Below, piece after piece: positions 4,937 through 41,817 of a stretch of 64,000 bases of DNA. Made by a program: the position numbers and the translations under genes. Under the pieces are notes generated by a model that saw nothing but the letters and a program-made list of their open reading frames with translations, was not told the DNA's origin and ran no database searches. This DNA comes from an uncultured Gammaproteobacteria bacterium (GTDB taxonomy: Bacteria; Patescibacteriota; Microgenomatia; JAMCZE01): positions 107,302 to 171,301 of the forward strand of contig CAZNUP010000002.1 of assembly GCA_964576435.1 (NCBI GenBank). The letters are read 5' to 3'. Every line of letters begins with the position of its first letter. Positions within the stretch are counted from its first letter, which is position 1.

Positions 4937-4940
4937 ATTT

Positions 4941-4970
4941 TTAAAATAAAAAAACTCGCCAAAGCGAGTC
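4941..4970 (-). terminator. Hairpin plus U-tract on the minus strand between ORF 5082..5483 and rplJ. Terminator or attenuator immediately 5' of the rplJ start.
   Basis: CTCGC-caaa-GCGAG stem followed (minus sense) by TTTTTTTATTTT. No Shine-Dalgarno (SD) sequence precedes rplJ. Confidence 0.35.
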
Positions 4971-5081
4971 AAAATAAGAAAATCTATTTTTGCCTCGGTA
5001 GGTCTTTTGCTATTTCTAGCTGCCTACTGTCTTTGGTGGATTTATTATAAATGATTCGAAATGGGTTTGCAACAGGTTGTG

Positions 5082-5483
5082 TTACTGCAAAGAAGAGATG
5101 ATTAACCCACATGCAGCCATTCCTAGGCCAGATATCGTAAGCCAGAATATCGTCTTTTGCGTCACTGAAATCCTAGGTGGGTTGTTTTCGAAATTTATCA
5201 TGTCATATTTTATACCAGTGGTTCGAGCGATGTCTAAGCCCATTCCACTAGTTTCCTCAAGACGGTTCAAAACATCTGAAACCATTTGTTTGGTTGCGTG
5301 CGGATCATCCGCTAGCAGTTTTAATTGCTCTAAAGATGCCCTTGAAGCTTCATAAGAAGTGGATTCATACCCTCTGGGAACATCATTTCCGTCTAATACT
5401 GGAGGGTTTGCACCTAGTCTGAGACTTTCTCTTTCTGCTTTGTTGAATGGTCCTTCTCCTCGAAAAATTGTTTTTAATGACAT
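5082..5483 (-). CDS. Hypothetical tail-anchored protein (C-terminal TM), inserted between rplA and rplJ
   Basis: ORF track. Single C-terminal hydrophobic segment. Confidence 0.35.
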   Translation of the reverse strand: MSLKTIFRGEGPFNKAERESLRLGANPPVLDGNDVPRGYESTSYEASRASLEQLKLLADDPHATKQMVSDVLNRLEETSGMGLDIARTTGIKYDMINFENNPPRISVTQKTIFWLTISGLGMAACGLIISSLQ

Positions 5484-24544: not shown

Positions 24545-24584
24545 TTTCTAGGTGCTGTAATTTGTTCAATATAACTTTGCAGGG

Positions 24585-24640
24585 GCGGGTGCGTGGCGCG
24601 CCGCCAAATCCCGTTCCTCTTTCTCTTCAAGTGCAGGAAG
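24585..24640 (+). repeat. Short GC-rich copy of the 3' part of repeat B' (see 28712..28827)
   Basis: gggcgggtgcgtGGCGCGCCGCCaaatcccgttcctctttctcttcaaGTGCAG. Compare gcgcgcggatcGCCGCCccttcttgtgagtctgtgtctctctGTGCAG at 28775-28826 and the tRNA-Tyr copy. Confidence 0.4.
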
Positions 24641-25499: not shown

Positions 25500-25613
25500 A
25501 TGCAGAGGTTTACCAACAAATTCGAACGTGTTTTCGTAGAAAATGTCTTTATGTTGGCTCGCTCCGCTCGCCTCTATCTTAGTGTCGACCCGCTGCGGCG
25601 GGGGCCTCCGCTT
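25500..25613 (+). repeat. Repeat A, left arm of inverted-repeat pair A/A' (about 113 bp, GC-rich)
   Basis: The reverse complement at 27045..27156 matches with a handful of mismatches and one 2-nt indel, as read by eye. Confidence 0.6.
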
Positions 25614-25763
25614 TAACGAATTTTTTGCGCGCGCGACACAGCACAGGAGCTTCCCGGCCAATTTGGGCGAAATTGGCCGCAATCGGCCGGAATGGTGGTA
25701 TTCGGCCGCTTGGGTTCATTGTGTGATTGCACAACAGGGATTTTGGTTTAGTGAAGTCATGTT

Positions 25764-25822: not shown

Positions 25823-26227
25823 ATGGCAACACCTGAAGAAAAGCTACTTAATTGGGCTAGGGAAAGGGAAGCTAATCCTCCTTCTCCATCTGTTCCAAAA
25901 CCTCCACTTGGTCAAGCCAAGGACGTTTTGATGCATTTTTTGGGAGGCTCGATTGGTTCCAGGAAGGTTACTTTAAGCGAAGGAAAGCCAACTTCAAAGA
26001 CTGCGGATGAGTTGAGGACAGAATTAAAAGAGGCACTTGGAGAATTTGACACGACAACTTTACCGGAAGATCGAGCTAGACAATATCAACAGATTGTTGG
26101 AGAACTAGATGGAAATCTGGATGATTTAACTCATTTGAATTTGATTGTAAAACACTATCACAATTTTGCCGCAGATCGTCCCCTGGATGCTCCTGAAATT
26201 AAAAAAGTGCGAAGAAAGCAAAAATAA
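25823..26227 (+). CDS. Hypothetical protein (134 aa), cargo of the A/A' segment
   Basis: ORF track. No family recognised by eye. Confidence 0.4.
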   Translation: MATPEEKLLNWAREREANPPSPSVPKPPLGQAKDVLMHFLGGSIGSRKVTLSEGKPTSKTADELRTELKEALGEFDTTTLPEDRARQYQQIVGELDGNLDDLTHLNLIVKHYHNFAADRPLDAPEIKKVRRKQK

Positions 26228-26237
26228 TATGTATTTC

Positions 26238-26903
26238 TCATGTTGTCACTTTTCTAGCGCGGTATGCTTCAATTCGTTTTGGAAGATCGTATAAATATTC
26301 GAGCAAGTAGTCTAGAAATTCAGTAATGTCGTTTGCGTCTTTAGGGTCGACACCGGAATCATTTGGGTCAGAGTGAGTTGCCTCATTCCCCAACAATCTA
26401 ACTTCATTGGACCAGTCAATCATTAGTGGGGGTAATAAACCCTGTTTTCCTAGATATTCAATTTCCTCCAAAAGATTTGCGCCTTTTGCCTTTTTATCTC
26501 GAAGCGCTGATTGCATCGAACTACGTGCCATTACCGAAGCTGCATCCCAATTCTCGTCAGTGAGGGATTTATGAGCTTGTAGCCAGTTTCTGCCAACGGC
26601 CGGTGGCCAGTGATCGGGGGATTTCGTGTATTTTAATGGAAAAGGAAGGACGCGATAATCATGGAGACTGTGACTACCACTGTATTCGCTTGATGACCAT
26701 AACACCATCACATAGCCAGCACAATTGCCGCATTTTAATGTGTCAAAATTAAGAACCTTACGGTTATTTGATTTTTTCTTTTCAGAATGATGTGCTGTTG
26801 AAAAATTACCTCTTTCCCCACAGAATGCGCATTCAATTCGATATATTGCAAGCGAGTCACCGGATTCTCCAATATGTTCACCGAGATCCCACCAACTGTT
26901 CAT
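26238..26903 (-). CDS. Zinc-ribbon protein with a C-terminal DUF4145-like domain, cargo of the A/A' segment
   Basis: CAFCGERGNF...CGNCAGY Cys pairs at the N-terminus. C-terminal LLGNEATH...LLEYLYDLP fits the DUF4145 GNxxAH pattern as recalled. Confidence 0.45.
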   Translation of the reverse strand: MNSWWDLGEHIGESGDSLAIYRIECAFCGERGNFSTAHHSEKKKSNNRKVLNFDTLKCGNCAGYVMVLWSSSEYSGSHSLHDYRVLPFPLKYTKSPDHWPPAVGRNWLQAHKSLTDENWDAASVMARSSMQSALRDKKAKGANLLEEIEYLGKQGLLPPLMIDWSNEVRLLGNEATHSDPNDSGVDPKDANDITEFLDYLLEYLYDLPKRIEAYRARKVTT

Positions 26904-27044
26904 AGCGGCATTTTACCAGAATTTTTGTGTCGGTTTGTATTGTTTTGTCTTCTTGAAAACTTCTTGACTTAAGACGACACTGAAAAAAAATCGCGAAAAT
27001 TTTTGCGTTTTCTTTCACACACAGGATTCGAGCCGACCTTTTTC

Positions 27045-27156
27045 AAAGCGGAGGCCCGCCGCAGCGGGCCGACACTAAGATGACGGCGAGCGGAGCGAGC
27101 CAACATAAAGACATTTTCTACGAAAACACGTTCGAATTTGTTGGTAAACCTCTGCA
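27045..27156 (-). repeat. Repeat A', right arm, inverted copy of A. Similarity to the tRNA-Tyr locus copy extends left to about 27020.
   Basis: Reverse complement of 25500..25613. 27022-27038 cgagccgaccttttt is the reverse complement of aaaaaggtcggctcg found in B' and at 40878. Confidence 0.6.
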
Positions 27157-27257
27157 CAGAGAGACACAGACTCACAAGAAGGGGCGGCGATCCGCGCGCC
27201 CGCAACCGCGCGGAGCGCCGCAAAGGGCTGTTTCAAAACCGCGCTGAGCTGCCGATT
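27152..27257 (+). repeat. Repeat B, left arm of pair B/B'. It overlaps the end of A' by 5 nt (ctgca).
   Basis: ctgcacagagagacacagactcacaagaaggggcggcgatccgcgcgcccgcaaccgcgcggagcgccgcaaagggctgtttcaaaaccgcgctgagctgccgatt. Its reverse complement lies at 28712..28827. Confidence 0.6.
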
Positions 27258-27329
27258 AGAAAATTAAAAAGCAGGAAAGAAAACGCAAAAATTTATTTAG
27301 GAACAGGAAAGTTACTCAAAACTGCACAA

Positions 27330-28949
27330 ATGAAATATATTGGCTATTGCCGAAAATCAACAGACGAAAAAGACAGACAGGTTTTGTCGATTGACGCACA
27401 AATTGCAGAACTCAAAGAATTTGCTCAGCGTGAACGCTTAGATGTTGTGGATTTTGTTGTTGAGGCAAAGACTGCCAAAGAACCGGGCAGGGAAAAATTT
27501 GCCGAAGTCTTGAAAAGAATTGAAAAAGACGAAGCACAAGGTATCCTTAGCTGGCATCCAGACAGACTTGCAAGGAATTCCGTGGATGGTGGGAGAGTGA
27601 TCTATCTTTTGGACACCGGGAAACTTTTGGATCTCAAATTTCCTTCATTTTGGTTCCAGAACACCCCTCAAGGCAAATTCATGCTCGGAATGGCCTTCAA
27701 TCAGAGCAAATATTATGTGGATTCCTTATCTGAAAATGTCAAAAGGGGAATCAGACAAAAACTTCGGCAGGGAATTTGGCCCAAACAAGCGCCGCTTGGC
27801 TACAAAAACAATCCCAAGACTAAAGGAATTGACATTGACTCCGAAACTGCACCTGTTGTCAAAAGAGCTTTCGCTCTTTTTGCCCAAGGCAACAAATCTT
27901 TCACTGAAATTGCCGATTTTTTCTTGAAGCATGGGATCACAGGAAAAACCGGGAAGAGATTACATTTGTCCGAAACCAAGAGACTACTGGGGAAAACTTT
28001 CTATATTGGCCATTTCAAATTTGGTGGTGAGCTTTATCAAGGAAGCCATAAGTGTTTTATCTCAAAATCCACTTTTCAAAAAGTTCAAGAGAGGCTGAAG
28101 AAAATTGAGCGACCAAGAAGGAAAGGCCACAATTTTCCTCTCGTTGGAATCGCTAAGTGTGGAGAATGTGGTGGTGCAATAACTGCCGAATCTCATCCCA
28201 GATTCTATCCCCGAACGGGAAGAAAAGTGGATTTTGTCTATTACCGCTGCACGAAAAAATTTGGCACATGCTCTCAGCGCTACACTCCGGCAGTAGATTT
28301 TGAGTCACAACTTGAAGAGTTGTTGTTTTCTGCATCTCTGCCAAATTCCTGGCAGAAAAAATGGAAAGATTGGTTGGATCGGGATGAAAAACTGGCGAAA
28401 GAATCCGCAGAGAAAAACCTGGCTGGTTATCAAGTCAGGATTGCTGACTTAGACAAAAAACAAAATCTACTGCTAGATACTTTCTTAGAGGGGACAATTG
28501 ATGAGGGAATGTTCAAAACGAAAAAGAACGAAATGTTTGAGAGAAAACAGAAACTTGAAGAAGAACTTTTGCAAGTGAAAGCTAGTGGCGCAGGTTGGCT
28601 CGAACCAATGAAAGACTTCATGGAAACGGCTTCACAGCTGGAAAAAATCGCGCGCGCAAAAAATTCCAGCGAAGATTTGCGAAACTTCGCCAAAAAGGTC
28701 GGCTCGAACTACTTTTTACAGGATCAGCAGCTCAGCGCGGTTTTGAAACAGCCCTTTGCGGCGCTCCGCGCGGTTGCGGGCGCGCGGATCGCCGCCCCTT
28801 CTTGTGAGTCTGTGTCTCTCTGTGCAGGGGCGGAAAGAATCGAACTTTCGTTGCGGGTTTTGGAGACTCGCGTCCTACCACTGAACGACGCCCCTTTATC
28901 CTGTTATTTTATCATTTTTATATGTTGGTGGTATAATCTATTTGTTTAA
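27330..28949 (+). CDS. Large serine recombinase (resolvase/invertase N-domain, recombinase domain and zinc ribbon)
   Basis: MKYIGYCRKSTDEKDRQVLSIDAQ (catalytic Ser region). ...ILSWHPDRLARN. Zinc ribbon CGECGG...YYRC. The track ORF opens at 27138 (no upstream stop); the Met at 27330 is preferred. The last ~80 codons read through repeat B' and the antisense tRNA-Trp before the first stop at 28950. Confidence 0.8.
   Translation: MKYIGYCRKSTDEKDRQVLSIDAQIAELKEFAQRERLDVVDFVVEAKTAKEPGREKFAEVLKRIEKDEAQGILSWHPDRLARNSVDGGRVIYLLDTGKLLDLKFPSFWFQNTPQGKFMLGMAFNQSKYYVDSLSENVKRGIRQKLRQGIWPKQAPLGYKNNPKTKGIDIDSETAPVVKRAFALFAQGNKSFTEIADFFLKHGITGKTGKRLHLSETKRLLGKTFYIGHFKFGGELYQGSHKCFISKSTFQKVQERLKKIERPRRKGHNFPLVGIAKCGECGGAITAESHPRFYPRTGRKVDFVYYRCTKKFGTCSQRYTPAVDFESQLEELLFSASLPNSWQKKWKDWLDRDEKLAKESAEKNLAGYQVRIADLDKKQNLLLDTFLEGTIDEGMFKTKKNEMFERKQKLEEELLQVKASGAGWLEPMKDFMETASQLEKIARAKNSSEDLRNFAKKVGSNYFLQDQQLSAVLKQPFAALRAVAGARIAAPSCESVSLCAGAERIELSLRVLETRVLPLNDAPLSCYFIIFICWWYNLFV
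28712..28827 (-). repeat. Repeat B', inverted copy of B. It ends 3 nt inside the 3' end of tRNA-Trp.
   Basis: Reverse complement of 27152..27257 at about 95% identity by eye. Direct similarity to the tRNA-Tyr flank (40878..41011) starts at 28684. Confidence 0.6.
28825..28895 (-). tRNA. tRNA-Trp (anticodon CCA)
   Basis: Manual fold. Acceptor AGGGGCG/CGCCCCT. D-stem GTTC/GGAC. Anticodon loop CU-CCA-AA. T-arm GAAAG-TTCGATT-CTTTC. No encoded CCA. Confidence 0.8.
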
Positions 28950-35890: not shown

Positions 35891-35965
35891 TGGAGCCTGA
35901 GAAGGGAATCGGACCCTTGACCTCTTCCTTACCAAGGAAGCGTTCTGCCACTGAACTACCCAGGC
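35891..35965 (-). tRNA. tRNA-Thr (anticodon GGT), CCA encoded
   Basis: Manual fold. Acceptor GCCTGGG/CTCAGGC. Anticodon arm CTTCC-TTGGTAA-GGAAG. T-arm AAGGG-TCCGATT-CCCTT, with C at position 55. Confidence 0.8.
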
Positions 35966-40712: not shown

Positions 40713-40794
40713 ATTGTACGTTGATCATACCAAAACGTCAAAAATCGGTTCCAACGACGTTTTTAGTTTAAAGTCGAATCTAATTTCGTTGGTG

Positions 40795-41011
40795 CGGTGT
40801 TACGAACAAGCTAGAACGTTATGTCGCAGCTCGCTCCGCTCGCTGCTTTTATAGCGTCGGCCTGCGGTCTCTGCGTTGGAAAAGGTCGGCTCGATCTTCT
40901 TTTTGAAGGACCGGCAGCTAGCCGTCGAATATACTCAGGAATTCGCGGCGCTCCGAGCGGTTGCGGGCGCTTGGCGCGCCGCTACCAATTCTTCTGAAAA
41001 ATCCCTGTCTG
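40795..41011 (+). repeat. Degenerate composite copy (A-like + aaaaggtcggctcga + B'-like) of the tRNA-Trp element repeats, immediately 3' of tRNA-Tyr
   Basis: 40878-41011 aligns with 28684-28826, including gcggcgctccgAgcggttgcgggcgc versus ...cgCgcgg.... 40795-40877 aligns with repeat A (gctcgctccgctcgc...). Confidence 0.5.
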
Positions 41012-41096
41012 TGCTGAGACCTGGATTCGAACCAGGGTAGCTCTTTCGAGCACGAGATTTACAGTCTCGCTCATTTGTCCACTCTGATATCTCAGC
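41012..41096 (-). tRNA. tRNA-Tyr (anticodon GTA) with a long variable arm
   Basis: Manual fold. Acceptor GCTGAGA/TCTCAGC. Anticodon loop CU-GTA-AA. Variable arm GTGCTCGAAAGAGCTAC. T-arm CCTGG-TTCGAAT-CCAGG. Confidence 0.85.
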
Positions 41097-41691
41097 TAAT
41101 CAACTCAGATGATATTATACCAATGTCCGATAAAATCTGTTCAAGAAGTCTTTTGTCGTTGTATCTTACGTGTATAAGGCCGTGCGGCATTTTATCAACT
41201 TTTTTTTCATCGAAGTCTGTTCGTGTATAAGGTTTGGTAAAATTTGATTTTGAAATTTTTAATTTTTTAGACCAGAAATCTACCAGACTAGAGGCATTTT
41301 GATTTGAATAGCAATACAAAAATGCTCTTAGTCGCTTTTCGTCTATTTTATATATTTGTCTTAGTAATTTTGTGAAAATTACTACCATATTTTCATTTGA
41401 ATTGGCAAAATCCACAATTCCATGTGGGGCTTTTGCTCCTTCTGCCCAGTACAACATTAACCCGGCCTGTAATAGCATTTTCTCGCTTTTTGTTGTTGGT
41501 GTTTTCTTTTGATAGGAGAGTGGAGTTTTATTAAATCTTAATTTTAAGGAGAGCGCTATTTTTCTCCTTGGAATATTAAATTTCTTCATTATCGACAAAA
41601 CCTGCCATTGGCTGATTTTAAGAGTGTGAGCTATCTCACGGGTATTTAGTTGTTGGTTACAATAAAGATCTCTTATCTTGTCAATGTCCAT
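41092..41691 (-). CDS. Hypothetical HTH-containing protein inserted between tRNA-Thr(TGT) and tRNA-Tyr
   Basis: N-terminal LNTREIAHTLKISQWQVLSIMKKF looks like an HTH. The stop overlaps the tRNA-Tyr 5' end by 5 nt. Confidence 0.4.
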   Translation of the reverse strand: MDIDKIRDLYCNQQLNTREIAHTLKISQWQVLSIMKKFNIPRRKIALSLKLRFNKTPLSYQKKTPTTKSEKMLLQAGLMLYWAEGAKAPHGIVDFANSNENMVVIFTKLLRQIYKIDEKRLRAFLYCYSNQNASSLVDFWSKKLKISKSNFTKPYTRTDFDEKKVDKMPHGLIHVRYNDKRLLEQILSDIGIISSELIS

Positions 41692-41745
41692 GCATACTTA
41701 GTATATTACTTTTGTTGAAGAATTCTAGAAGAGAAATTTTATTTG

Positions 41746-41817
41746 AGCCACCTCTCGGATTTGGACCGAGGACCTTCGCTTTACAAAAGCGTTGCTCTAC
41801 CACTGAGCTAAGGTGGC
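41746..41817 (-). tRNA. tRNA-Thr (anticodon TGT)
   Basis: Manual fold. Acceptor GCCACCT/AGGTGGC. D-arm GCTC-AGTGGTA-GAGC. Anticodon loop UU-TGT-AA. T-arm CTCGG-TCCAAAT-CCGAG, with C at position 55. Confidence 0.8.

What the first reader, a model, noticed from the sequence alone, without database searches (positions are those of the whole stretch)
40795..41011. Degenerate copy of the element's repeats downstream of tRNA-Tyr, and a third fragment at 24585-24640
The 3' flank of tRNA-Tyr carries a composite, degenerate copy of the same sequences. 40878-41011 aligns with 28684-28826, which is the C-terminal coding region of the recombinase and includes the 26-mer with one mismatch. 40795-40877 aligns with repeat A. 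A shorter B'-tail copy (GGCGCGCCGCC...GTGCAG) lies at 24585-24640, on the other side of the CPBP protease gene. The same GC-rich module therefore sits next to the 3' ends of two different tRNA genes. That fits either recombinase attachment or recognition sites, a remnant of a lost sister element, or a family of structured tRNA-trailing elements. Because the tRNA-Tyr copy includes what is recombinase coding sequence at the Trp locus, a deleted second copy that left a scar is the more likely explanation.
Basis: seen in the sequence. Interest (0 to 1): 0.7.

Follow-up and report, generated by a model that had tools for sequence, protein, structure and literature searches.

The report
Relic of a tRNA-targeting mobile element
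The GC-rich block beside the tyrosine tRNA gene is the collapsed leftover of a second copy of a small recombinase-driven mobile element whose intact copy sits beside the tryptophan tRNA gene; such a leftover is ordinary, but the element family it belongs to is large, oddly built, and not described in any paper my searches found.

Summary
The main observation holds. Window 40792-41014 is collinear (76% identity, 166 of 219 aligned bases) with two parts of the intact element at tRNA-Trp: its left arm 'A' plus a 17-nt motif 'R', then the last ~45 codons of its large serine recombinase (LSR) gene up to the tRNA junction. Profiles built only from relatives in other genomes also hit it (E=1.5e-18 and 2e-4). 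The third fragment (24578-24636) has only marginal support.

The intact element belongs to a large LSR family in Patescibacteria. In 53 of 57 loci scanned for tRNAs, the LSR's 3' end abuts the 3' end of a convergent tRNA or tmRNA gene. The crossover lies in the discriminator/CCA nucleotides. The layout recurs: X|A-cargo-A'|B-LSR-B'|tRNA, and the inner A'|B is an inverted copy of the element's own attP.

The Tyr block keeps only the two ends. It has correct attL and attR geometry, a 4-nt core (GTGC) at both ends, an open LSR reading frame and two mutated invariant motifs.

A second solo with the same A-R-B' layout exists in an unrelated contig (L084). Three relics break at or within three codons of R, which suggests a repeat- or site-mediated collapse rather than a random deletion.

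The relic is ordinary. The family architecture looks undescribed.

The parts
40792..40795 (+). Left junction core GTGC of the Tyr relic (attL-type: host flank | A)
   Evidence: The same 4-mer as at the right junction (41011-14). The A-arm motif lies 17 nt to its right, as in attP-type half-sites of intact elements (read directly from the sequence).
40796..40877 (+). A-like arm, the left end of the lost element. It has a 20-nt internal deletion, and the half-site motif is mutated to CTAGAAC (40811-40817).
   Evidence: BLAST to inner A' E=1.4e-8. A profile built from relatives E=2.3e-4. Composite alignment.
40878..40896 (+). R motif ('core'), ggaaaaggtcggctcgatc. The family-invariant GGCTCGAAC is mutated here to GGCTCGATC.
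   Evidence: (D9). Invariance of GGCTCGAAC in 16 of 16 aligned relatives.
40897..41010 (+). Remnant of the LSR C-terminal coding tail (g + B'), including the GC hairpin at 40945-40982. The frame is open: ...FFLKDRQLAVEYTQEFAALRAVAGAWRAATNSSEKSLSV.
   Evidence: 75% identity to 28693-28795. Profile E=1.5e-18. Translation. Hairpin in the predicted fold.
41011..41014 (+). Right junction core GTGC (attR-type: B' | tRNA). It overlaps the discriminator and the last acceptor bases of tRNA-Tyr.
   Evidence: The CGAAC of the T-loop lies 13 nt further on, as in all attB-type half-sites.
41012..41096 (-). tRNA-Tyr (GTA), the integration target. The gene is intact.
   Evidence: ARAGORN and Rfam.
25501..25614 (+). 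Outer A arm of the intact element at tRNA-Trp (attL, core TGCAG at 25501-05). It is followed by rc(L) at 25618-25636.
   Evidence: Inverted repeats I2 and I14.
25823..26903 (.). Cargo: ORF134 (25823-26227, +) and a DUF4145 / PD-T7-4-like defence gene (26238-26903, -).
26997..27294 (+). Inner block: Q' stem arm (26997-27016), rc(R) (27027-27043), A' (27045-27156), B (27149-27256) and Q stem arm (27275-27294). A'|B is an inverted copy of the element's own attP, B'|A.
   Evidence: Inverted repeats I1, I2, I10. The RNA fold has z=-6.55.
27330..28949 (+). Large serine recombinase ORF. There is no stop codon before tRNA-Trp, so the frame runs antisense through the tRNA. Its 3' part holds L (28648-28666), a palindrome c (28667-28691), R (28692-28709) and B' (28723-28830).
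28824..28895 (-). tRNA-Trp (CCA), target of the intact element. The attR core is TGCAG at 28823-28827.
24578..24636 (+). Possible third relic: a B'-tail-like 58-mer ending in GTGCAG. No right half-site follows it.
   Evidence: Not supported by the family profile.

Best explanation
The 223-bp block between a host gene and tRNA-Tyr is a 'solo' relic. It is what remains of a second integrative element of the same family as the intact 3.3-kb element at tRNA-Trp.

How the family works (shown unless marked otherwise):
- A large serine recombinase inserts a circular element at the very 3' end of a tRNA gene (the circle is inferred). The crossover falls in the last acceptor bases, the discriminator and the CCA/trailer, so the tRNA stays intact.
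- The right end of the element is the recombinase gene's own last ~45 codons (R-g-B'). This is why the recombinase gene always abuts the tRNA.
- The left end is arm A, whose start mimics a tRNA T-arm (TTCGAAC) placed 4-5 bp further from the crossover than in the tRNA.
- Intact elements also carry an inverted copy of their own attP (A'|B) upstream of the recombinase gene, with an R copy beside it.

What the Tyr relic keeps: host|GTGC|A-R-g-B'|GTGC-tRNA. These are attL and attR with only ~220 bp between them. The cargo, the inner block, the promoter and the first ~453 codons of the recombinase are gone.

How it formed (inferred): the A-R joint in the relic is the same joint that intact elements carry in inverted orientation. 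The simplest route is therefore two steps. First, an inversion between the two inverted 17-nt R copies places the inner block in direct orientation next to R-g-B'-tRNA. Second, a deletion between the now-direct ~100-nt A copies removes everything else.

The relic is decaying. Two invariant motifs are mutated and 20 nt are deleted from A. It is probably inert, apart from supplying the 3' flank of tRNA-Tyr.
For: Homology and collinearity with both ends of the Trp element. Independent family profiles.

The in-frame, stop-free translation matches the family C-terminal consensus (FAKxVGSNFFLxDRQLSAxxKxGFAALxAxxGARSA).

Family behaviour:
- The LSR domains and catalytic R8-K9-S10 are conserved.
- In 53 of 57 loci scanned for tRNAs, the LSR 3' end abuts a convergent tRNA or tmRNA of many kinds.
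- The double inverted-repeat layout is complete in 18 of 26 loci, and B is found in 25, at 77-100% identity between arms.

Classical LSR chemistry is shown by a natural insertion of one element into another's LSR gene (L051):
- attL ...caacaTC|ccgtt...
- attR ...aacccTC|gcatt...
- inner copy, equal to attP: ...aacccTC|ccgtt...
- The reconstructed attB restores the reading frame KFVLNIAFSQSKYY.

Junction geometry: CGAAC lies 13 nt from the core on the tRNA side and 17-18 nt from it in A. The Tyr relic keeps both spacings.

Decay: GGCTCGAAC is invariant in 16 of 16 relatives but reads GGCTCGATC in the relic.

Recurrence:
- A second solo with the identical layout A-c*-R-g-B' lies next to tRNA-Pro in an LSR-free 12-kb contig. 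It is preceded by a B' tail, exactly the intermediate the two-step route predicts (L084).
- A third relic starts exactly at R (L086).
- tblastn matches start at LSR residue 454, 454 and 457 in the three relics.

Solos are rare. None occurs at the other tRNAs in 646 kb of related loci, so the module is not a general tRNA-flanking sequence.

The relic is real and fixed: it is 100% identical in three assemblies.
Against: - No intact element of this subfamily has been seen at a tRNA-Tyr. The Tyr-site elements L023 and L027 are more distant from the relic than the Trp copy is.
- The flipped intermediate was not seen in any of the 13 loci where the R motif could be placed: R always sits by the inner A'. 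Ten contigs carrying one LSR all show a single gene arrangement. The two-step route is therefore inference, supported only by the layout of L084.
- The ORF remnant is still open over 57 codons, and the B' hairpin keeps its pairing through a C-G to A-T change plus G-U wobbles. This could mean a recent origin or continuing constraint, for example as the tRNA's 3' flank.
- Orthologous empty tRNA-Tyr sites could not be found, because synteny is lost in the nearest relatives.
Confidence: 0.8

Rival explanations
1. The block is a miniature non-autonomous element. A ~220-bp circle (A-R-g-B', with attP at the B'|A joint) was derived from the inner block or the circle junction, and a resident recombinase integrated it in trans at tRNA-Tyr.
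For: The reverse complement of the inner block (g-B'|A-c*-R) is an exact circular permutation of the Tyr module. The relic has clean attL and attR geometry with the same 4-nt core at both ends.
Against: - There is only one copy in the 64-kb window and none in 646 kb of related loci.
- The inner block is flanked by inverted repeats, not direct ones, so it has no obvious way to excise.
- R-g-B' in the relic is in frame and consensus-like, as in a real LSR gene, whereas g is frame-broken in inner blocks.
- The second solo (L084) is preceded by a B' tail, which a simple mini-circle insertion does not predict.
- Both recognition motifs in the relic are mutated.
Confidence: 0.1
2. The block is an unoccupied landing pad, an attB-like platform A|R. 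The recombinase-plus-cargo circle integrates at the palindrome c and completes its own gene from the pad's R-g-B'.
For: In intact elements the outer A is followed by rc(L) and the LSR gene holds L-c-R. This is what integrating a circle with a palindromic L-c-rc(L) site into an A-c-R pad would give.
Against: - Pads should be common at empty tRNAs, yet they are absent from the other tRNAs of 60-odd related loci and from both tRNA-Thr genes in the window.
- In L051 the whole unit, from A to B', was inserted in a single LSR event into a known continuous target. A and B' therefore travel with the element.
- The R-g-B' tail is conserved in every full-length homologue.
Confidence: 0.04
3. The block is a functional structured RNA or terminator co-transcribed with tRNA-Tyr, either a tRNA-trailing element or a relic taken over as one.
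For: It lies directly downstream of tRNA-Tyr on the tRNA's strand. It contains a GC hairpin whose pairing is kept by compensatory and wobble changes. GC hairpins of differing sequence occur at a similar place in most B' arms of relatives.
Against: - No Rfam family matches.
- The whole-module fold is no better than shuffles: z=-1.76 on the tRNA strand and -0.54 on the other.
- No U-tract follows the hairpin, and no terminator-like site is called there on the tRNA strand.
- Sequence homology to an LSR gene and to an element end explains its origin fully.
Confidence: 0.05
4. The similarity is compositional only: GC-rich low-complexity sequence in an AT-rich genome.
For: Both regions are GC-rich islands in a ~38% GC genome.
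Against: BLAST E=1e-14, profile E=1.5e-18, alignment score 151 against a shuffle maximum of 36, a preserved reading frame and preserved junction geometry.
Confidence: 0.01

Closest known systems
Large serine recombinase (serine integrase) integrative elements and prophages (phiC31, Bxb1, A118 / LI integrase type)
   Same: - Resolvase + Recombinase + zinc-ribbon domains with a catalytic serine.
- Conservative attP x attB exchange with a 2-nt core, shown by the L051 natural insertion.
- The attP half-site motif lies 4-5 bp further out than the attB one. This matches the published LI integrase-attP model (Rutherford et al. 2013, cited from memory).
   Different: - The target is the extreme 3' end of essentially any tRNA or tmRNA gene.
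- The recombinase ORF has no stop before the junction and reads into the tRNA.
- The element's right end lies inside its own recombinase gene.
- An inverted copy of attP, enclosed in the closest relatives by a 11-25-nt stem, is carried upstream of the gene in most relatives checked.
- No directionality factor is evident.
Tycheposons of Prochlorococcus (Hackl et al., bioRxiv 10.1101/2020.12.28.424599)
   Same: Small cargo-carrying (defence or adaptation) elements that integrate at tRNA genes, pile up in arrays, and leave degenerate remnants such as fragmented integrases. The Tyr block is that kind of remnant.
   Different: - Tycheposons mostly use tyrosine recombinases (910 of 937) and are separated by partial tRNA copies.
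- Here the recombinase is an LSR.
- Only 4-8 nt are shared at the junctions in the window.
- The architecture has two nested inverted-repeat pairs.
Solo relics of mobile elements (solo LTRs, orphan att scars, remnant integrase fragments next to tRNA genes)
   Same: Only the element's terminal sequences remain at the original target, produced by recombination between repeats within the element.
   Different: The repeats here are inverted in the intact element. A flip must therefore precede the deletion, or a site-specific event at R must be invoked.
Invertible-segment systems and the yeast 2-micron plasmid (recombinase gene flanked by inverted recombination sites)
   Same: The recombinase gene and the cargo are each bracketed by near-identical inverted repeats that contain the recombinase's own site. 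A flipped LSR cassette occurs in L077.
   Different: No alternative orientations were seen in 10 contigs of one element or in the 13 loci where the R motif could be placed. LSRs are not known to recombine attP with attP. Resemblance only; not tested.

Membership tests
Large serine recombinase integrative element (applies to the intact Trp element) | N-terminal resolvase catalytic domain with conserved serine, plus recombinase domain and zinc ribbon | tested here: met
   PF00239 E=3e-20, PF07508 E=8e-12, PF13408 E=3e-8. R8, K9 and S10 are invariant in 22 homologues.
Large serine recombinase integrative element | Hybrid attL and attR junctions from which attP and attB can be reconstructed, with a crossover core of a few nucleotides and no long target duplication | tested here: met
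   L051: TC core, and the reconstructed attB restores an intact LSR reading frame. Window: TGCAG is shared by attL, the inner attP and attR.
Large serine recombinase integrative element | attP-type half-sites longer than attB-type ones (recognition motif displaced by about 5 bp) | tested here: met
   CGAAC lies 13 nt from the core in tRNAs and 17-18 nt from it in A arms, read by eye in 10 of the 14 loci listed.
Large serine recombinase integrative element | Recombinase-catalysed integration and excision demonstrated | not testable with these tools
No circular junction was recovered unambiguously: L076 may be an alternative assembly path.
Active element of that family (applies to the Tyr block) | Encodes, or is linked to, a complete recombinase and carries intact recognition motifs | tested here: not met
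   Only LSR residues ~454 to the end are present. R reads GGCTCGATC and the A motif reads CTAGAAC. It is therefore a relic, not a member.
Solo relic of an integrative element (applies to the Tyr block) | Both element ends in native order and orientation at a bona fide target site, interior missing, signs of decay | tested here: met
   A second example with the same layout is in L084.
Tycheposon | Tyrosine recombinase (mostly) and partial tRNA direct repeats bounding the element | tested here: not met
   The recombinase is an LSR. No partial tRNA copy lies at the left ends in the window, only a 4-8-nt core. A 44-nt partial tRNA-Pro copy does occur in L084.
MITE-like non-autonomous element | Many near-identical copies; terminal inverted repeats; target-site duplication | tested here: not met
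   There is one copy in the window and none in 646 kb of relatives. The two ends of the module are unrelated to each other.
Known structured RNA family | Match to an Rfam covariance model, or a fold significantly more stable than shuffles | tested here: not met
   Only tRNAs and the L10 leader were found in the window. z=-1.76 and -0.54.

The most novel reading that the evidence does not exclude
The internal inverted attP, the extra L and R half-site copies beside the two A arms, and the Q stem are not passengers. They are working parts of a multi-site, recombinase-operated cassette system at tRNA 3' ends. On this reading, the recombinase and cargo segments are separately flippable or exchangeable cassettes that can form arrays, as in L077. 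Solos such as the Tyr block would then be programmed products of a site-specific collapse at R, leaving a tRNA-linked scar or pad, rather than accidents of homologous recombination. That would make this a new class of serine-recombinase element, widespread in Patescibacteria, with a reaction repertoire beyond attP x attB.
Probability: 0.2. Interest if true: 0.75.

Novelty: new variant of a known kind. Interest (0 to 1): 0.45.

Why it matters
The relic matters little on its own. It is a fossil showing that tRNA-Tyr was once occupied, and that such elements turn over in this small genome.

The value lies in what it points to. The search returned thousands of LSR homologues (7,277 at E<=1e-10). 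Where the 120 best are named, they come from Patescibacteria.
- These elements carry defence cargo: a PD-T7-4-like gene, restriction-modification systems and toxin-antitoxin pairs.
- They appear able to use almost any tRNA gene's 3' end by recognising the T-arm/acceptor geometry.
- They have a recurring double inverted-repeat design that standard serine-integrase models do not explain.

If the recognition rule holds (a CGAAC motif at 13 versus 17-18 nt from the core), it gives a simple, testable att-site grammar for a large natural set of serine integrases. That is of interest for genome-engineering toolkits. It would also explain how defence genes move in organisms with few known mobile elements.

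The recurrent breakpoint at the invariant GGCTCGAAC motif gives a concrete handle for testing whether the recombinase also acts at secondary sites.

Tried and rejected
- Rfam scan of the whole window: only four tRNAs and the L10 leader.
- RNA folding of the Tyr block on both strands: not better than shuffles. No terminator-like site on the tRNA strand.
- Orthologous 'empty' tRNA-Tyr site. The neighbouring 488-aa gene has a 100% match (the same genome in three Logan assemblies, with an identical locus), but the next relatives (58-64% identity) have lost synteny.
- Search for alternative isomers or circles. Ten contigs carrying the identical LSR P0035 all have the same arrangement. L076 (LSR followed by the B'|A joint and cargo) could be a circle, but is equally an alternative assembly path through the inverted repeat.
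- Word-indexed protein search with the 57-aa Tyr ORF: no candidates. The exhaustive phmmer search instead gave the short relic ORFs.
- IS110 / bridge-RNA-type explanation for the structured inner block. Rejected because the recombinase is a canonical LSR and the block is a full-length inverted copy of the ends, not short guide loops.
- Folded single-stranded integration, as in CTXphi or integron attC sites. It is attractive because the inner block is exactly complementary to the circle junction. By reasoning alone, concerted double-strand cleavage by a serine recombinase on such a stem would cap the chromosome ends with hairpins. It is kept only as an open idea.
- Tyr-site elements L023 and L027 as the source of the relic. 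They are more distant from it than the Trp copy is.
- Literature searches for this family in CPR/Patescibacteria: nothing found. The library is limited to open-access papers and bioRxiv.
Full report
**1. Setting**

The window is AT-rich (~38% GC). Its closest relatives among named genomes are Patescibacteria (Gottesmanbacteria / Microgenomates-type genomes). It holds four tRNA genes, all on the minus strand: Trp 28824-28895, Thr 35891-35965, Tyr 41011-41096 and Thr 41745-41817.

Next to tRNA-Trp lies a 3.3-kb GC-richer insert. It contains a large serine recombinase (LSR) gene starting at 27330 (Resolvase, Recombinase and zinc-ribbon domains). Its reading frame has no stop until 28949, so it runs antisense through the tRNA.

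**2. Checking the observation**

- 40880-40982 matches 28693-28795 at 75% over 103 nt without gaps (E=1.4e-14 within the window). 40819-40894 matches the inner copy of repeat A plus the 'core' at 73% over 83 nt (E=1.4e-8).
- A composite of [inner A + core] followed by [LSR tail up to the tRNA] aligns end to end with 40786-41016. It gives 166 of 219 identities and a score of 151, against 8.4 +/- 4.4 (maximum 36) for 300 shuffles.
- Profiles built only from related loci in other genomes find the block at E=1.5e-18 (recombinase tail) and 2.3e-4 (A arm). This excludes a purely compositional match.
- The 26-mer differs at one base between the two copies.
- The locus is identical in three independent assemblies.

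The third fragment (24578-24636) is weaker.
- BLAST gives E of about 0.01-0.04, and the family profile misses it.
- It is nonetheless the reciprocal best ungapped match of the Trp B' tail in the whole window (36 of 58 against a background maximum of 29-30), with the GTGCAG junction in register. The 11-mer TGCAGGGGCGG occurs only there and at the Trp junction.
- I treat it as a possible third relic and nothing more.

**3. What the intact element is**

The LSR search returned 7,277 homologues at E<=1e-10. Where the 120 best are named, they come from Patescibacteria.

Their C-termini share the consensus FAKxVGSNFFLxDRQLSAxxKxGFAALxAxxGARSA. They then read on into peptides such as GIEP, RLEL and GFEP, which are translations of antisense tRNA T-arms.

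In 53 of the 57 related loci scanned for tRNAs, the 3' end of the LSR gene abuts the 3' end of a convergent tRNA. The tRNAs include Trp, Lys, Gly, Glu, Gln, Leu, Pro, Cys, Tyr, Met, Thr, Arg, Ser, Phe and Val; in one locus the gene is a tmRNA.

One architecture recurs: host|A - cargo (1.1-5.6 kb, variable) - A'|B - promoter region - LSR - B'|tRNA.
- The pairs A/A' and B/B' are inverted repeats of about 55-170 nt. In most loci they are 90-100% identical (77-79% in the two most diverged).
- B is found in 25 of the 26 loci checked, and the full layout in 18 of them, across elements that share only 33-58% recombinase identity.
- Differences between related elements are mirrored in both arms. The arms therefore evolve in concert.
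- The inner joint A'|B is the exact reverse complement of the joint B'|A that circularisation would create. The element thus carries an inverted copy of its own attP.

**4. Proof of the recombination chemistry**

L051 is a natural experiment: one element has inserted into the LSR gene of another.
- The interrupted gene supplies a known continuous target.
- attL reads ...caacaTC|ccgttctacc..., and attR reads ...aacccTC|gcattttctc....
- The inner inverted copy reads ...aacccTC|ccgttctacc..., which is attP.
- Joining the outer flanks restores the reading frame KFVLNIAFSQSKYY.

This is classical serine-integrase exchange with a 2-nt core. It also shows that the mobile unit includes A, the inner block and B'.

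Across 14 tRNA-borne elements, the shared core covers the last acceptor bases, the discriminator and the CCA or trailer. Examples are TGCAG at Trp, GTGC at Leu, and TGGCTC, TGGTCG and TGGTGC where CCA is encoded.

The T-loop motif CGAAC lies 13 nt from the core on the tRNA side. An equivalent motif lies 17-18 nt from the core in A. This 4-5 bp offset matches the published attB/attP half-site rule for serine integrases (Rutherford et al. 2013, cited from memory).

I infer that the recombinase reads the acceptor/T-arm geometry common to all tRNA genes. That would explain the breadth of targets.

**5. Finer anatomy**

The 3' part of the LSR gene holds three features in a row:
- L, 19 nt, coding IARAKN;
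- a 25-nt palindrome, c;
- R, 17-18 nt (aaaaaggtcggctcgaa[c]), coding KKVGSN.

Copies of L and R sit beside the A arms.
- The outer A is followed by an inverted L, and the inner A by an R copy.
- The R motif sits by the inner A' in all 13 loci where it is found. The outer flank shows the inverted-L GC-run in most of those.

GGCTCGAAC within R is invariant at the DNA level in 16 of 16 aligned relatives, with no synonymous variation despite AT-rich genomes. A second copy lies 102 nt upstream, coding WLEP. It resembles the CGAAC half-site motif and is probably a cis-acting site (inference).

The inner block is enclosed by a stem of at least 11 nt (20-25 nt in seven loci) in 13 of 20 loci. The stem sequence differs between elements. 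With this stem, the window's inner block folds far better than shuffles (z=-6.55). Why elements keep an inverted attP is unresolved.

**6. What the Tyr block is**

Read against this anatomy, 40792-41014 is host|GTGC|A (40796-40877) - R (40878-40896) - g-B' (40897-41010)|GTGC-tRNA-Tyr.
- Both junction spacings are preserved: 17 nt from the core to the A motif, and 13 nt from the core to the T-loop CGAAC.
- The tail translates in the LSR frame without stops (EKVGSIFFLKDRQLAVEYTQEFAALRAVAGAWRAATNSSEKSLSV...). It is closer to the family consensus than the Trp copy is. It therefore derives from a distinct sister element.
- It lacks the cargo, the inner block, the promoter and the first ~453 codons of the LSR.
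- It shows decay: GGCTCGAAC has become GGCTCGATC, TTCGAAC has become CTAGAAC, and 20 nt are deleted from A.

It is a solo relic.

**7. How it formed (inferred)**

The A-R joint of the relic is not a new deletion joint. It has the same layout and sequence type as the A-c*-R joint that intact elements carry in inverted orientation.

A two-step route explains this.
- Step 1: inversion between the two inverted R copies (17-18 nt, 100% identical). This yields ...g-B'|A-c*-R-g-B'|tRNA.
- Step 2: deletion between the now-direct A copies (~100 nt, at least 95% identical). This leaves host|A-c*-R-g-B'|tRNA.

An exhaustive phmmer search with the relic ORF found independent support.
- L084 is a 12-kb contig without any LSR. 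It has [B' tail]|A-c*-R-g-B' next to a partial copy of tRNA-Pro, and an intact tRNA-Pro lies about 100 nt further on. This is the predicted intermediate layout after an imprecise deletion (A profile E=1.6e-9; B' profile E=1.6e-21).
- L086 has a relic that starts exactly at TCGGCTCGAAC, next to tRNA-Glu.
- The three relics begin at LSR residues 454, 454 and 457, so R is a recurrent breakpoint.

Whether homologous recombination or the recombinase itself acts at R cannot be decided here. Flipped isomers were not seen in any of the 13 loci where the R motif could be placed, nor in 10 contigs carrying one element. L077 does show a tandem array with one LSR cassette flipped.

**8. Rivals**

- A mini-element mobilised in trans, or an empty landing pad: both are disfavoured. 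The module is absent from the other tRNAs in 646 kb of related loci. L051 shows that A and B' travel with the element. The relic's recognition motifs are mutated.
- A functional tRNA-trailer RNA: not supported by Rfam or by folding. The conserved GC hairpin in B' could still serve the tRNA's 3' end. Most relatives have a GC hairpin of different sequence at a similar place.
- Composition alone: excluded for the Tyr block.

**9. Comparison and novelty**

In function, the elements are serine-integrase integrative islands carrying defence cargo.
- The window's cargo includes a PD-T7-4-like gene.
- L004 carries a cytosine methyltransferase, Vsr, a putative restriction enzyme and a LexA-like repressor, as judged from their sequences.
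- L077 carries a type I restriction-modification system.

Ecologically they resemble tycheposons: tRNA targets, arrays and degenerate remnants. Tycheposons, however, mostly use tyrosine recombinases, and their arrays are separated by partial tRNA copies.

I found no description of this LSR family or its double inverted-repeat design in the searchable literature. That library is incomplete.

The relic itself is an ordinary kind of object. The family is best rated a new variant of a known kind.

Noticed in passing
window 27330-28949 and the homologues: The recombinase ORF has no stop codon before the element's end. It reads antisense through tRNA-Trp, so its C-terminal residues depend on which tRNA it sits beside. 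Homologues end in GIEP, RLEL or GFEP peptides, which are translated T-arms.
   Followed up: partly
P0001-P0018; L051 4034-8634; L059 366-1470: About 900-aa 'fusion' proteins join a full LSR in frame to a second LSR that lacks its first ~120 residues. L051 shows that this is one element inserted into another element's recombinase gene, at a conserved codon (KF.L.IAFGQSKYY). It looks like a subfamily that targets and inactivates resident elements.
   Followed up: partly
window 26997-27294; Q stems in 13 of 20 loci: In the closest relatives, the inner inverted attP copy is enclosed by a 11-25-nt perfect stem whose sequence varies between elements. The whole ~300-nt block in the window folds with z=-6.55. 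Its function is unknown.
   Followed up: partly
window 28596-28604 and 28701-28709; relatives: GGCTCGAAC occurs twice in the LSR 3' region, exactly 102 nt apart, coding WLEP and GSN. The GSN copy shows no synonymous variation in 16 of 16 relatives. It resembles the CGAAC half-site motif and is probably a cis-acting DNA site inside the gene.
   Followed up: partly
window 40811-40817; L084 about 5285-5291: Both solos (Tyr here, Pro in L084) carry the same C-to-A change in the A-arm motif: CGAAC has become AGAAC. All 14 intact elements listed have CGAAC. This may be chance (n=2), or selection for solos that the recombinase can no longer bind.
   Followed up: no
L077 4467-17542: A tandem array at tRNA-Lys: tRNA|B-LSR_a-B'|A-cargo-A'|B-LSR_b-B'|A-like-type I restriction-modification cargo. 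The second LSR cassette is flipped relative to the standard layout. The B/B' arms flanking the flipped LSR are only 89% identical, so assembly collapse is unlikely.
   Followed up: partly
window 26238-26903 (- strand); L004 688-5409; L066 3872-4418: The cargo is defence or addiction genes. In the window it is a DUF4145 protein matching PD-T7-4 (E=2.6e-9). L004 carries Dcm-type methyltransferase-, Vsr- and LexA-like ORFs and a candidate restriction enzyme. L066 has a BrnT/CopG-like toxin-antitoxin pair upstream of its LSR.
   Followed up: partly
L029 7191-7576: In one locus the LSR abuts a tmRNA gene instead of a tRNA. This fits recognition of the tRNA-like acceptor/T-arm end.
   Followed up: no
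many loci (e.g. L019-L028, L035-L040); L079 end: Contigs often break a few hundred bases upstream of the LSR or inside B'. This is probably because the inverted repeats and multiple copies per genome defeat short-read assembly, so element counts in MAGs are likely underestimates.
   Followed up: no
L017 1697-1770: ARAGORN calls a tRNA with anticodon CTA (labelled Pyl) within a tRNA cluster of a Patescibacteria MAG. It may be an amber suppressor or evidence of a recoded stop codon.
   Followed up: no
L084 5469-5512 and 5612-5655: A 44-nt direct repeat of the 3' part of tRNA-Pro flanks ~100 nt of unrelated sequence between the solo and the intact tRNA. It looks like the footprint of a different, tyrosine-integrase-style event at the same tRNA.
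   Followed up: no
window 41092-41691 (- strand): A 199-aa ORF ends 5 nt inside the 5' end of tRNA-Tyr. It has only a weak, sub-threshold DUF7431 match (E=5e-4). Its function is unknown.
   Followed up: no
window 4939-5054 (- strand): Ribosomal protein L10 leader (Rfam RF00557, 61 bits).
   Followed up: no
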